64,000 nucleotides of DNA from a plasmid: NCBI RefSeq assembly GCF_056746865.1, contig NZ_JBWKMP010000005.1, one strand, 5' to 3'. Shown here one piece after another: positions 12,001 through 15,000 of this stretch. Position 1 is the stretch's first letter. Every line of letters begins with the position of its first letter. Position numbers: made by a program.

Positions 12001-15000
12001 CAGCTCTGGTGTGGCGGTCAGGTGCTTGCTGTTCCGCCAGCGTACACAAGCCAGCGTTGCGCGTGCTGTGGTCATACAGCGAAAGAAAATCGCCTGTCAC
12101 AAAGTCAATTCAGATGCCAGGTATGTGGATATACAGCGAACGCCGATGTAAACGGCGCTCGTAACATTTTAGCGGCGGGGCACGCCGTTCTTGCCTGTGG
12201 AGGGATGGTGCAGTCAGGCCGCCCGTTGAAGCAGGAACCCACCGAAATGATTCAGGCGACAGCCTGAACGTAGCAGGAATCCACGTCCTTCAGGGCGTGG
12301 AGGATGTCAAATAATTGCGATTTTGCCTGGTGTGTTGTTGCGCCCGTAGCTCGCTGACGCTCACACGCGCAGTACAGCGCCCCGCCCTGCTGCAATGCAC
12401 CAGGACGGCGTGAACTCGCTGGCGCTCGCGCTAACTGCGGCATTCTGCGGCGCAAATCAGCATGATCATAGCCTGTTGGTCTGTTCTGGCTTTGCAGGGC
12501 GAAGGGATGGCCCTGTGCATCCTGGTATGTTCGTCAGCGGCTGCGCCGCGCTTCGGGGCGATGTGGCCCCGCTGCTCCCTGGTATTTTCTTTCGCCCCTT
12601 CTATCCGCTGGCGCGGATAAAAAAATGAGCAAACCATCAAATAACTTGCTGTTTTCAGGCAACAAATCTTGATAATACATCTAAATAGATGTATTATTGT
12701 TTCATCGAAAGGGGATTGGCTCCTTTCCTTCTTAAGTCCAAACGGACAGGAGATTTAAAATGAAATTCACTTCAACCACGAATCATGTTTTCACATTCGA
12801 ACGAGTAACGCTTTGCACGATTGTTCTTATTCATAAGGATACGGGACAACAGTATGTTGTCATATTTACGGATAACAATAAAATTCGTGACTATAAGACC
12901 GGAATTGTTTCTCAGTTTGGTGAACTTAAGCAGAGTGATATTGATTTAATTCTTTTCTATCGGGACGAATATGAAAAATATTTTGACTCGTTAAATAATG
13001 GCGAGGAGTATTTGAGTTTTAAAGAATATATCGGATGTATAAGGGGAAAATAAATTATGAAAGGTGTGATCAGGTTGCTGGAACAACCTGATCACGTTAT
13101 CGACAATCAAAACTGAATGAGGTTTTTAAATGTCAACGCGGCAGATCGTACAGCTTGCTGACTCCCTTGTCAAAGGCTGGGAAACCAGAATTCCGGCAAT
13201 GACGTGCACGGAGTGGGATCAATTCCGGTGGTGGTTAAACTACCTGCAAGGGTATGAAATGTTTTAAATAACCGGGATAAATTCATATATGGGGAGAGTG
13301 TCATGCTCTCCCTTTCTTATTGTGTAAGCGAGTTGTATTACATATTTAGCTTTACGTTGTAAAGATTTTATTCGTTGTCTTTACAGTGTGGTGTGTTTTC
13401 CGGCGGTTGCGCTGCGCTTAGGGGTATGTGGCTTCGCTGCTCCCTGGTATTTTCTTTCACCCTCCTATTTGTCCGATGACTTTTGACAACAACGCTATTT
13501 GTAACTATAATTAGTTGCATGTTGGCAAGGGATGGGATTATAGCGTATGGGGAAAGCAGATAAGCTACTGGCAAAATTTTTAAACAGTAAAAAAACGTTT
13601 GAATGGGATGAACTCGTTGTTTTGTTTTCTTCTCTAGGATATGTCAAAAAGGAAATGCAGGGATCAAGAGTGCGATTTTTCAATGCTGAAATTAATCACA
13701 CAATATTAATGCATCGCCCACATCCAGAAAGTTATATTAAAGGTGGAACGCTGAAAGCTATTAAACAGAACTTGAAAGAGGCTGGGGTTTTATGAAACAT
13801 TTAAAATATAAAGGATATTTAGGTACGGTTGAGCCGGATTTTGAAAATAATATCCTGTATGGAAAGCTGGCATTTATTCGTGATCTGGTGACTTATGAGG
13901 CAGAAACATTGGCTGACCTGGAACGGGAATTTAAAACATCGGTTGATTTGTATTTACAGTCCTGTGTGGAGGACGGAAAGGAGCCTGACACGCCCTTTAA
14001 AGGTGTGTTTAACGTCAGGCTTGATCCAGAGCTGCATCGTCGGGTCGCTGAAATGGCGATGGAAGAAGATTTGTCGCTGAATGCCTTTGTCAATAAGGCA
14101 CTGGAAAAAGAAGTCAGTCATCATCGCGCAGGGGCTTAATCGCCCCTTTTTGTTGCTCGCAGGCGTTGATGTTTCTTGGTATTACGGTGTAGTGTGTTGT
14201 ATTTACAAACAATGCTTTACGGTGTATTACGATGCATACTCTTTAATTGCTTGCAATCTCTTTTCACGTTCGTTGCTTTGTTCAGCTTTTTTCAATTCAC
14301 TGAATATGTACTCTTCATCTTTACCCGTGAGTTTTGAACCGGAGAGCAAGCGATTAACAACTTTACGTCGAATTGCAGGGTAATCTTTGGTTTTATCGAG
14401 TATGGACAATATGCGGTCACTACTAAGAATCTGGCCTTTCCCTGATTCCACATAATGTAGAAAAAATGCGATTGCGGACACGCCCAAAAGCACTGTAAGG
14501 ACGGCTACACCATCAAGACGAAACTTTGATATAAAGGAATACGCGACCACTCCAATAATTGCTAAGCAGAGACATAAATAAATTAAGAGGTTTTTGTTGC
14601 GTTGTTTTTTTTGTGCGCGATCATGATCATCTATGATTGCCAGTATCTTTTCTGGAGTTGCTTGAGCCATTTTTTTTCCTTATCAGGGAGACGGAGTGTT
14701 CAATCATCTGGCTTTACAATGTAAAGCTGTGTTTGTCTTTACGGTGTAAATAATGAGATGTGCAGTTAAAAGTGTCAATCAGGTATCATATAGTAAAACA
14801 CTATATGATTTTTCTGTAATAGGCTTAAAAAATTCTCGCTTACATTGTAAAGGTCTTTGTGTCTTTACAGTGCACCACGTTGTAAATCACTGCCTTCTGT
14901 GGAGATAATCATGTTTTTTTCTGTTGGTGTCGAAACACCGAAAGATGATCAGACTGCATACGGCATCACTGTTCCGGCTTTTGATTGTTTTGGTTTTGGA

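What the first reader, a model, noticed from the sequence alone, without database searches (positions are those of the whole stretch)
13130..13267. Possible 45-aa micro-ORF downstream of a module-driven gene
Seen in sequence: ATG preceded by GAGG, translation MSTRQIVQLADSLVKGWETRIPAMTCTEWDQFRWWLNYLQGYEMF; below the ORF-track cutoff; no supporting homology.
Basis: seen in the sequence. Interest (0 to 1): 0.2.

Follow-up and report, generated by a model that had tools for sequence, protein, structure and literature searches.

The report
Conserved antisense-gated plasmid micro-gene
The 45-codon reading frame is a real, strongly conserved but almost never annotated small-protein gene in the first-transferred part of many conjugative resistance plasmids, and it appears to be switched off by a small antisense RNA made from inside the gene itself.

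Summary
The ORF at 13130-13267 (+) exists exactly as described. It is a genuine gene. The window is an IncI2 (mcr-1-type) conjugative plasmid, and the ORF lies in its leading region, about 5 kb from oriT and in the same orientation as the relaxase.

Intact 41-49-aa homologues occur in 1133 plasmid records, 93% of them conjugative. They include IncI2, IncX4, IncX6/U, IncF, MPF_I Klebsiella, Pantoea and Serratia plasmids. pN/pS is 0.10 in frame, against 1.9 and 5.0 out of frame. Variable sites at codon positions 1, 2 and 3 number 5, 5 and 21. An in-frame 4-aa indel also occurs. AlphaFold gives a confident two-helix hairpin (pLDDT 91). No Pfam, NCBIfam, PHROG or PDB relative was found.

What travels together is a roughly 250-bp unit:
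- a stem-loop 28-34 nt upstream, with compensatory changes in 10 of 12 pairs
- a Shine-Dalgarno site
- the ORF
- an intrinsic terminator

In 12 of 12 lineages a sigma-70-type promoter lies inside codons 5-15 on the opposite strand. It points towards the stem-loop.

Best reading: a roughly 75-90-nt cis-antisense RNA, built like FinP or SymR, masks the ribosome site of a soluble small protein. That protein is probably needed only briefly after plasmid entry. Its biochemical function is unknown.

The parts
12316..12759 (+). Repeated promoter module in front of the 97-aa gene. It holds a GC-rich conserved core and a sigma-70-like promoter, TTGATA-17-TATTAT, at 12669-12697. That promoter sits inside a perfect 12-bp palindrome at 12672-12697.
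   Evidence: repeat families D2/D5/D7 and the alignment of four copies. (promoter scan, 10 of 12). (palindrome). One search finds no blastn similarity to the F leading region or Frpo.
12760..13053 (+). The 97-aa gene (WP_000673428.1 in RefSeq records), first cistron of the unit in this plasmid. The gene in this position differs between plasmids that carry the micro-ORF.
   Evidence: annotation. (a different upstream gene in other backbones). (no Pfam or NCBIfam family).
13066..13095 (.). Conserved stem-loop GTGATCAGGTTG-CTGGAA-CAACCTGATCAC, with a 12-bp stem and a hexaloop. It is read as the 3' terminator hairpin (SL2) of the antisense RNA. Its mirror image lies in the mRNA.
   Evidence: Present 28-34 nt upstream of the ATG in 16 of 17 loci and in 3 further lineages. 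On 13 sequences, 92% of cells are paired against 24-44% when the partners are slid. Ten of 12 pairs carry compensatory changes, and 0 of 500 shuffles reach the observed covariation score. It is the only hairpin of this kind in the window.
13119..13122 (+). Shine-Dalgarno GAGG, 7 nt before the start codon.
   Evidence: An equivalent GAGG/GGAG is present in all homologues.
13130..13267 (+). Micro-ORF encoding a 45-aa soluble two-helix protein. Helices span residues 3-14 and 26-40. Conserved residues in the intervening loop include G16 and P22-A23-M24.
   Evidence: sequence. (1133 plasmids). (dN/dS 0.02-0.14; codon-position variability 5/5/21). (conserved columns; in-frame indel). (remote members). 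(AF2 pLDDT 91). (not hydrophobic).
13145..13173 (-). Antisense sigma-70-like promoter inside codons 6-15. The -35 TTGACA is at 13173-13168, the spacer is 17 nt, and the -10 TACGAT is at 13150-13145.
   Evidence: 10 of 12 matches. The same position holds a match in 12 of 12 independent lineages, against 0-1 of 12 in seven control position windows. Joint probability under synonymous recoding is about 1e-6. Codon 7 is always NTA, a rare codon, which supplies the first T of the -10.
13050..13139 (-). Predicted cis-antisense RNA of about 75-90 nt. The start is inferred about 7 nt after the -10. SL1 (13137-13099) carries the anti-start codon in its stem and the anti-SD CCUC in its apical loop. SL2 is the conserved hairpin, followed by ACCUUUCAUAAUUUAUUUU.
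   Evidence: The two-stem-loop fold recurs in 11 of 13 lineages despite sequence divergence, and the anti-SD is unpaired in 10 of those 11 folds. The ends are inferred, not measured.
13291..13323 (+). Intrinsic terminator (GGGGAGAG-loop-CUCUCCC followed by a T-rich tail) that closes the sense transcription unit 24 nt after the stop codon.
   Evidence: Terminator hairpins of unrelated sequence follow the stop codon directly in nearly all homologous loci.

Best explanation
The ORF is a real gene for a 45-aa soluble protein that folds as a helix-loop-helix. It belongs to an unnamed family and travels between conjugative plasmids as a compact unit: stem-loop, SD, ORF, terminator. It is always in the leading region and always in the orientation of the relaxase genes. 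That orientation makes the transferred strand the template for its mRNA.

In this IncI2 plasmid it is the last cistron of the unit that starts at the repeated promoter module and includes the 97-aa gene.

A promoter embedded in codons 5-15 on the opposite strand drives a short antisense RNA. This RNA runs across the start codon and the Shine-Dalgarno site and ends at the conserved stem-loop. By pairing with the ribosome-binding region it keeps the small protein off in cells where the plasmid is established.

The antisense RNA needs the complementary strand as its template. It therefore cannot be made from the incoming single strand. The protein would be produced mainly in a short burst just after entry into a new host, where it most likely binds a host or plasmid macromolecule to help establishment.

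What is shown:
- the coding status of the ORF
- the conservation of the family
- the covariation in the hairpin
- the positional conservation of the antisense promoter motif
- the leading-region position and orientation

What is inferred:
- that the antisense RNA exists and represses translation
- the timing of expression
- the biochemical role of the protein
For: Coding status:
- Intact ORFs with ATG and SD are found in 15 or more divergent loci.
- pN/pS is 0.10 in frame, against 1.9 and 5.0 out of frame. Fisher p is 1e-7 to 4e-9 for single pairs.
- Variable sites by codon position number 5, 5 and 21.
- An in-frame 4-aa indel occurs.
- AF2 gives pLDDT 91.

Distribution:
- 1133 plasmid records carry it, 1057 of them conjugative.
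- In complete E. coli genomes, 593 of 594 places are on plasmids.

Context:
- The ORF lies upstream of oriT and the relaxase, in the same orientation, in IncI2, IncX4, IncX6/U, MPF_I, F-like and metagenomic plasmids.
- In the window, the NikA-like gene is at 18507-18848 and the relaxase at 18845-23158.
- The relaxase normally lies in the lagging region, and leading-region genes are oriented for transcription from the T-strand (PMC11541004).

Hairpin: 10 of 12 pairs are compensatory, 92% of cells are paired, and the slid controls give 24-44%.

Antisense promoter:
- It is present in 12 of 12 lineages at ORF nt 9-20, against 0-1 of 12 elsewhere.
- It is improbable under synonymous recoding, about 1e-6 jointly.

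Antisense RNA fold: two stem-loops with the anti-SD in the SL1 loop recur across most lineages (11 of 13).

Terminators follow the stop codon in nearly all loci.
Against: - No expression data of any kind. The antisense RNA, its ends and its effect are predictions.
- The amino-acid sequence itself predisposes to the promoter-like motif. The per-lineage chance is 0.04-0.88.
- The U-rich tail after the hairpin on the minus strand is good in only about 5 of 13 lineages. In the window it reads ACCTTTCATAATTT.
- G.T and A.C irregularities in the stem do not favour either strand, two cases each.
- RNAalifold recovered only SL2 as a consensus structure.
- The upstream module shows no Frpo similarity, and its promoter folds on itself as single-stranded DNA. 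Transcription of the mRNA from the incoming single strand is therefore not established for this plasmid.
- One divergent member (L026) lacks both the hairpin and the antisense promoter.
- The protein's function is unsupported by any homology.
Confidence: 0.6

Rival explanations
1. The gene is real, but there is no antisense RNA. On this reading the upstream stem-loop is only an intercistronic mRNA element, such as a stabiliser, a processing barrier or a translational modulator. The minus-strand promoter-like motif would be a by-product of the conserved I-(I/V/L) and L-V-K codons and of AT-rich codon choice near the start.
For: - Recoding simulations give the motif by chance in 4-88% of draws per lineage.
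- The hairpin keeps a fixed distance of 28-34 nt to the ATG, as expected for a translation-linked mRNA element.
- The terminator tail on the minus strand is weak in most lineages.
- Stem irregularities do not favour the minus strand.
Against: - The motif is present in 12 of 12 lineages at one position, against 0-1 of 12 in control positions.
- Rare NTA codons are used at codon 7 in every lineage.
- In L007 and L023 the -10 is kept out of frame, although the amino acids there differ.
- The predicted transcript folds into the same two-stem-loop design everywhere.
Confidence: 0.22
2. The unit is a type I toxin-antitoxin (post-segregational killing) module. The 45-aa peptide would be the toxin. 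The antisense RNA would be the labile antitoxin that blocks its translation, as in hok/sok or symE/symR.
For: - It has a small ORF, a cis-antisense RNA over the RBS, and a structured RBS region.
- It lies in the leading region, where hok-type modules and other TA genes cluster. A Hok gene is present on the same plasmid backbone.
- It often sits next to type II TA pairs such as hicAB, relBE and parDE-like genes.
Against: - The peptide is soluble. GRAVY is -0.34 and the highest 15-residue hydropathy is 0.2-1.2, against 2.4-3.2 for Hok, TisB, Ibs and Ldr, whose sequences were recalled from memory.
- There is no Hok or other Pfam match.
- No conserved promoter of its own was found. It is the last cistron behind varying genes.
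- Toxicity has not been tested.
Confidence: 0.13
3. The reading frame is a chance ORF in a non-coding spacer. On this reading the conservation reflects a DNA or RNA element only, such as a priming site or an sRNA.
For: - PGAP leaves it unannotated in the IncI2, IncX4 and E. coli RefSeq records examined here.
- A structured element and a possible sRNA do overlap it.
Against: - Substitutions are overwhelmingly synonymous in this frame only.
- Protein similarity persists where the DNA is only 44-60% identical.
- Start, stop, SD and length are kept across 15 or more loci.
- Indels are in frame.
- AF2 predicts a confident fold.
Confidence: 0.02

Closest known systems
FinP antisense RNA / traJ of F-like plasmids
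   Same: Both are short plasmid-encoded cis-antisense RNAs with two stem-loops, complementary to the 5' untranslated region and ribosome-binding site of the target. The 3' stem-loop doubles as the terminator. FinP's anatomy is as described in PMC10470590. Here the anti-SD sits in the SL1 loop and the conserved hairpin is SL2.
   Different: - The target is a 45-aa leading-region protein, not the transfer activator TraJ.
- There is no Rfam FinP match and no other Rfam match over the unit.
- The promoter lies inside the target's coding sequence.
- Dependence on a FinO/ProQ protein is unknown. The IncI2 backbone does encode one, but most other host plasmids of the unit were not checked.
Type I toxin-antitoxin systems with an RBS-overlapping antisense RNA (symE/symR; hok/sok, pnd, srnB of plasmid leading regions)
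   Same: Both have a small ORF whose translation start is covered by a roughly 70-90-nt cis-antisense RNA. In symR, as I recall, the RNA is also transcribed from within the ORF's 5' end. Hok-type modules share the leading-region location.
   Different: - The peptide is soluble and aromatic-rich, with no transmembrane segment.
- There is no sequence relationship to Hok/Gef or any Pfam family.
- There is no dedicated sense promoter.
- Toxicity is untested.
Leading-region early genes of conjugative plasmids (ardA, psiB, ssb, anti-CRISPRs; Samuel et al. 2024, PMC11541004)
   Same: Position next to oriT on the first-entering side. Orientation with the T-strand as template. Small size. Occurrence across many plasmid backbones. 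Neighbours include antirestriction, J-domain and TA genes.
   Different: - There is no homology to any known anti-defence protein.
- The PADLOC library was not searched.
- Control by an internal antisense promoter has not, to my knowledge, been described for these genes.
- The promoter module here is not Frpo-like.
Rop/Rom of ColE1 (small helical-hairpin protein)
   Same: Both are tiny plasmid-encoded helix-loop-helix proteins. A linked-dimer AF2 model suggests dimerisation.
   Different: - There is no sequence or fold match.
- The loop is much longer, with a conserved G-x5-(I/V)-P-A-M motif. In the dimer model this loop forms an intermolecular beta-bridge.
- RNA binding is pure speculation.

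Membership tests
Type I toxin-antitoxin system | Small toxin ORF, usually under 60 aa | tested here: met
   The ORF is 45 aa here and 41-49 aa across the family.
Type I toxin-antitoxin system | Antisense RNA that base-pairs with the toxin mRNA and blocks its translation | tested here: inconclusive
   A conserved minus-strand promoter motif and a terminator-like hairpin predict such an RNA in 12 of 12 lineages. No transcript data are available.
Type I toxin-antitoxin system | Toxin is a hydrophobic membrane peptide (true of most families), or is otherwise toxic when expressed | tested here: not met
   GRAVY is -0.34. The highest 15-residue hydropathy is 0.2-1.2, against 2.4-3.2 for Hok, TisB, Ibs and Ldr. 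Toxicity itself cannot be tested with these tools.
Hok/Gef family | Sequence match to the Hok/Gef profile | tested here: not met
   None of the 19 family members hits any Pfam family at E<=1.
FinP/traJ fertility-inhibition system | Two-stem-loop antisense RNA complementary to the target's RBS region | tested here: inconclusive
   The predicted fold has this architecture in 11 of 13 lineages. Only SL2 has covariation support. The RNA has not been observed.
FinP/traJ fertility-inhibition system | Match to the Rfam FinP model; target is traJ | tested here: not met
   No Rfam hit at 13050-13320 at E<=1. The target is an unrelated 45-aa ORF.
Frpo/ssi single-stranded-DNA promoters (tested for the upstream module) | Sequence similarity to known Frpo/ssi elements | tested here: not met
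   blastn of window 7000-14300 against the F plasmid leading region (50-68 kb) gives only chance matches, with E>=0.39.
Frpo/ssi single-stranded-DNA promoters (tested for the upstream module) | A long stem-loop in the transferred strand that rebuilds the -35 and -10 boxes | tested here: not met
   The T-strand fold of 12480-12765 pairs the promoter palindrome with itself in an 11-12-bp hairpin. It does not rebuild a linear promoter. Other, unknown classes cannot be excluded.
Ribbon-helix-helix (CopG/Arc/MetJ) small repressors | N-terminal beta-strand followed by two helices; match to an RHH profile | tested here: not met
   AF2 gives helix, loop, helix with no N-terminal strand. There is no RHH Pfam hit. 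The dimer model places a short strand between the helices instead.
Leading-region early-expressed gene | Located on the leading side of oriT, with the T-strand as template | tested here: met
   The ORF has the same orientation as the relaxase and lies upstream of it in the window. The same holds in at least 10 other backbones where a relaxase or traM gene is in view. The rule for assigning the leading side comes from PMC11541004.
Leading-region early-expressed gene | Transcript induced in new transconjugants | not testable with these tools
   This needs donor-depleted transconjugant RNA-seq, as in PMC12672017. That study used IncI1 and F plasmids, not these.

The most novel reading that the evidence does not exclude
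The unit is a strand-asymmetric timer. The incoming T-strand can template the micro-ORF mRNA but cannot template its antisense repressor, which needs the complementary strand. The 45-aa protein is therefore made only in the single-stranded window after entry. During that window it neutralises a host factor, such as a defence, SOS or DNA-processing component, and it is silenced automatically once the plasmid becomes double-stranded. This would be a new family of establishment or anti-defence effectors. It would also be a new, general way of limiting leading-region genes to the first minutes in a new host. The unit is carried by the main mcr-1 vectors, IncI2 and IncX4.
Probability: 0.2. Interest if true: 0.8.

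Novelty: new variant of a known kind. Interest (0 to 1): 0.6.

Why it matters
The unit sits on the globally spread mcr-1 plasmids (IncI2, IncX4) and on more than a thousand sequenced conjugative plasmids. NCBI's pipeline almost never annotates it, and no family database lists it.

It lies in the part of the plasmid that enters a new cell first. That region has recently been shown to be packed with anti-defence and establishment functions.

A conserved small protein there, with its own built-in antisense switch, is a concrete and cheap experimental target. A silent -10 mutation, a stop codon or a tagged fusion would each be informative. Such experiments could show how these plasmids establish in new hosts, and how small unannotated genes contribute.

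It is also a clean example of dual coding. The same 30 nucleotides encode helix 1 of the protein on one strand and a promoter on the other.

Tried and rejected
- **Rfam over 5-20 kb**. There is nothing at the unit. The only hits are weak, below gathering score: HgcC-like, RAGATH-18 and sot0042 at the IS200/IS605 3' ends, and a GcvB-like one at 15241-15371.
- **Is the upstream module an Frpo homologue?** There is no similarity to the F leading region. The first script, crashed on empty output. The single-strand fold does not rebuild a promoter. I therefore do not claim single-stranded-DNA transcription for this plasmid.
- **A conserved upstream mini-ORF (13058-13117, 19 aa) or an N-terminal extension from the invariant TTG.** Rejected, because the frame relation to the micro-ORF changes between lineages. 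The 'LLEQPD' similarity is explained by hairpin conservation.
- **The hairpin as an operator, a relaxase site or a second copy elsewhere.** It is unique in the window. The arms differ between lineages while pairing is kept, so sequence-specific recognition is unlikely.
- **A conserved sense promoter just upstream of the hairpin.** None is shared between backbones, from reading.
- **Strand assignment of the hairpin from wobble pairs.** Uninformative: two G.T and two A.C cases.
- **RNAalifold on the whole antisense RNA.** It recovered only SL2, because indels misalign SL1. SL1 rests on single-sequence folds.
- **Literature searches** for IncI2 or IncX4 leading-region small proteins or antisense RNAs found nothing on this unit.
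Full report
**Observation.** ATG is at 13130, TAA at 13265-13267, and the ORF has 45 codons. GAGG lies at 13119-13122, 7 nt before the start. An ORF of this length means nothing by itself, since one search lists 75 ORFs of at least 30 aa in 7 kb. 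The question is whether it is conserved as a protein.

**Where we are.** The window is an IncI2 conjugative plasmid of the mcr-1-carrying type. It is 100% identical over 2 kb to many E. coli IncI2 records with MOBP and MPF_T typing. A NikA-like gene (18507-18848, +) and a 1437-aa relaxase (18845-23158, +) place oriT in the 18139-18506 gap. The relaxase normally lies on the lagging side of oriT. Leading-region genes are oriented so that the transferred strand is their template (PMC11541004).

The micro-ORF is 5 kb on the other side of oriT, in the relaxase orientation. It is therefore a leading-region gene with the T-strand as template. Its neighbours are a J-domain protein, an Xre/MqsA-like HTH protein, hicAB and several unknown genes. 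RefSeq annotation leaves the 13054-13546 interval empty in the IncI2, IncX4 and E. coli records I opened.

**It is a protein-coding gene.** tblastn finds the peptide in 1133 plasmid records, and 1132 of those matches cover at least 80% of it. The identity classes are:
- 100% (IncI2)
- about 93% (33-kb IncX4)
- 87-89% (IncX6/IncU-typed Klebsiella plasmids)
- 96% (an IncF ETEC plasmid)
- 64% (Pantoea)
- 54% (Serratia)
- 48% (MPF_I Klebsiella plasmids)
- 37% (Enterobacter)

Of the 1133 records, 1057 are typed conjugative. All loci I fetched have an intact 41-49-codon frame with ATG and a GAGG/GGAG 6-9 nt upstream.

Nei-Gojobori dN/dS is 0.02-0.14 for all unsaturated pairs. Summed over seven pairs, pN/pS is 0.10 in the ORF frame, against 1.92 and 5.01 in the two shifted frames. 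Among six close sequences, the variable sites at codon positions 1, 2 and 3 number 5, 5 and 21. Single-pair Fisher tests give 1e-7 to 4e-9. Three database members carry an in-frame 4-residue insertion.

A profile search of 1.8 billion cluster representatives returns 27 proteins. Most are 41-49 aa and share the pattern h-x2-hA-x2-h-x2-G-x5-hP(A/P)(M/L)-x4-(W/L)-x3-h(W/F)Wh-x-Yh. AlphaFold2 on the family alignment gives pLDDT 91, with helices at 3-14 and 26-40 joined by the conserved loop. The peptide is soluble, not membrane-like. It has no relative in Pfam, NCBIfam, PHROGs or the PDB, by sequence or by fold.

**What travels with it.** Comparing backbones, the homology starts about 65 nt before the ATG and ends at the stop codon. 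The gene in front differs: 97 aa here, and 45-292 aa unrelated proteins elsewhere. So does the gene behind: hicAB, relBE, a parDE-like pair, or nothing before oriT. Three features are constant.

1. *An intrinsic terminator follows the stop codon.* In the window it is at 13291-13313 plus a T-tail. Unrelated GC-rich hairpins with T-runs take its place in the other loci.
2. *A stem-loop lies 28-34 nt upstream of the ATG.* In the window it is at 13066-13095, with a 12-bp stem and a hexaloop. It is present in 16 of 17 loci and in three more lineages. On 13 distinct sequences, 92% of cells pair, against 24-44% when the partner is slid. Ten of 12 pairs show compensatory double changes, and no shuffle in 500 reaches the observed covariation score (RNAalifold agrees).
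3. *A sigma-70-type promoter motif sits on the opposite strand inside the ORF.* In the window it is TTGACA-17-TACGAT at 13173-13145. The same motif lies at the same place in every lineage examined, with 9-11 of 12 matches and the -10 ending at ORF nt 13-16.

**Is the antisense promoter more than codon noise?** The -10 is the reverse complement of codons 6-7, which encode Ile then Ile, Val or Leu. The -35 is the reverse complement of codons 13-15. The protein sequence therefore helps to create the motif.

Random synonymous recoding with the plasmid's own codon usage gives a motif of at least 9 of 12 at that place in 4-88% of draws, depending on lineage. The product over 12 independent lineages is about 1e-6. 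Codon 7 is always GTA, ATA or CTA, which have usage 0.23, 0.24 and 0.06 in the window. This codon supplies the first T of the -10. Over eight lineages that choice alone has probability of about 2e-6.

In L007 and L023 the amino acids differ, yet a TATAAT or TAATAT is kept out of frame. Seven control position windows along the ORF carry the motif in 0-1 of 12 lineages, against 12 of 12 at the conserved place.

**The predicted antisense RNA.** The start is taken about 7 nt after the -10, at window position ~13138. The transcript would run leftward over the start codon and the SD and reach the conserved hairpin after about 43 nt. Folded alone, the predicted RNA forms two stem-loops in 11 of 13 lineages.
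- SL1 has the anti-start codon in its stem. In 10 of those 11 folds the anti-SD (CCUC) is in the apical loop or otherwise unpaired.
- SL2 is the conserved hairpin, followed by a pyrimidine/U-rich tail.

The nearly invariant Ser2 codon TCA pairs within SL1. Serratia has CCA there, with the compensating change GACA to GGCA. On the sense strand the mirror structure partly buries the SD and the AUG.

This is the design of FinP, whose two stem-loops are complementary to the traJ leader (PMC10470590). It is also, from my own knowledge, the design of SymR and Sok. The hairpin's fixed distance to the ATG then follows from the length of the antisense RNA.

**Mechanism proposed.** The following points are shown:
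- the gene codes for a protein under purifying selection
- the gene, the hairpin and the antisense promoter motif co-occur and co-evolve
- the unit is in the leading region with the T-strand as template
- the unit ends the sense transcription unit

The following points are inferred. An antisense RNA of about 75-90 nt is made from the internal promoter, ends at the hairpin, pairs with the ribosome-binding region, and keeps the peptide off in established cells. The template for the antisense RNA is the strand that is not transferred. The repressor therefore cannot be made until the complementary strand has been synthesised, and no repressor pre-exists in a recipient. The peptide would then be made in a burst after entry.

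I commit to this with about 0.6 confidence for the regulatory part. For the idea that the peptide is an early establishment or anti-defence effector acting by protein binding, my confidence is about 0.3-0.4.

**Caveats.**
- There are no expression data.
- The U-tail after the hairpin on the minus strand is convincing in only about five lineages.
- Wobble pairs do not tell the strands apart.
- SL1 has no formal covariation support.
- One divergent member (L026) lacks the antisense features.

**The 'module'.** The repeated element upstream of the 97-aa gene is real. It carries a good promoter at 12669-12697. It has no similarity to the F leading region or Frpo. Its promoter sits in a perfect 12-bp palindrome that folds on itself in single-stranded DNA.

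To me it looks more like a repressor-controlled double-strand promoter, in the manner of the CUP repeats of IncN plasmids as I recall them, than a single-strand promoter. Other single-strand promoter classes are still being discovered (PMC12672017). Transcription of the micro-ORF mRNA from the incoming single strand is therefore not established here. That weakens the strict 'single-strand window' version of the timing model. It does not weaken the point that a recipient has no repressor when the plasmid arrives.

**Comparison with known systems.** The unit works like FinP/traJ or like a type I TA locus with an RBS-overlapping antisense RNA. It is not a member of either. There is no Rfam match, the target is unrelated to TraJ, and the peptide lacks the hydrophobic character of membrane type I toxins and any Hok similarity. 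The protein family itself is unnamed. A few records carry it as 'hypothetical protein', for example WP_257789149.1 in Pantoea.

I found no paper on it. I rate it a new variant of a known kind. The regulatory principle is known. The protein family is new, and so is the placement among leading-region early genes.

**Verdict.** I set interest at 0.6.

Noticed in passing
window 5845-~7608 and 10559-~12310: Two identical IS200/IS605-type elements (tnpA on the minus strand, 402-aa tnpB on the plus strand) are inserted at the same relative position of two copies of the promoter module. Each lies just after a TGTAAAG...CTTTACA inverted repeat. IS-free IncI2 plasmids align again from 12311. The leading region, which is single-stranded during transfer, may be a preferred target.
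   Followed up: partly
window 7486-7609 and 12200-12323: Weak Rfam hits to HgcC (28-33 bits, below gathering score) lie at the 3' ends of both tnpB genes. This is where a TnpB guide (omega/re) RNA would be expected.
   Followed up: no
window 5722-5814, 10466-10513, 13345-13388, 14701-14748, 14827-14874, 15246-15293: A roughly 48-nt element, TTACAnTGTAAAG-N10-CTTTACAnTGTA, is repeated six to seven times across the leading region. One copy lies directly after the micro-ORF terminator. It could be an operator or a single-strand hairpin signal, but its role is unknown.
   Followed up: no
window 7969-7994, 8702-8727, 12672-12697: A perfect palindrome, ATAATACATCTA-AA-TAGATGTATTAT, spans the -35 to -10 interval of three module promoters. 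This looks like a shared operator for an unidentified repressor of leading-region operons.
   Followed up: partly
window 12395-12628: RefSeq annotates a 77-aa 'hypothetical protein' (WP_000553847.1) inside the GC-rich repeated module, while the truly conserved micro-ORF 500 nt downstream is left out. The annotated ORF may be spurious. Its coding signal was not tested.
   Followed up: no
window 21216-21557: There are at least 14 tandem copies of an 18-nt unit (a 6-residue repeat) inside the 1437-aa relaxase gene.
   Followed up: no
window 18202-18346: Short TGTGGGT-type iterated repeats lie in the intergenic gap between the minus-strand gene block and the NikA-like gene, which is the presumed oriT region.
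   Followed up: no
window 35512-36686: Three copies of a 48-nt repeat, each containing a 13-bp inverted repeat (ACCGGATTGGCAC/GTGCCAATCCGGT), are spaced about 550-580 nt apart. This is consistent with the shufflon recombination sites of I-type plasmids.
   Followed up: no
window 58745-58823 and 60070-60148: A 79-nt near-identical direct repeat includes a start region and a terminator-like GC hairpin, with the two copies 1325 nt apart.
   Followed up: no
window 2028-2058 and 14785-14809: Two related perfect palindromes (ATCATATAG...CTATATGAT) lie 12.7 kb apart. They may be sites for one DNA-binding protein.
   Followed up: no
L026 1066-1215 (metagenomic contig SRR7093325_748112): A 49-aa family member has a different N-terminal helix and lacks both the upstream hairpin and the internal antisense promoter. 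It has a plus-strand TATAAT upstream instead. It may be a natural variant that escaped antisense control.
   Followed up: partly
L003 3139-3230, L010 1639-1730 and window 13483-13511: The hicAB promoter (TTGACA-17-TATAAT, 12 of 12 in the window) follows the micro-ORF terminator directly in IncX4 and related plasmids. In the window it is preceded by a partial copy of the module core.
   Followed up: no
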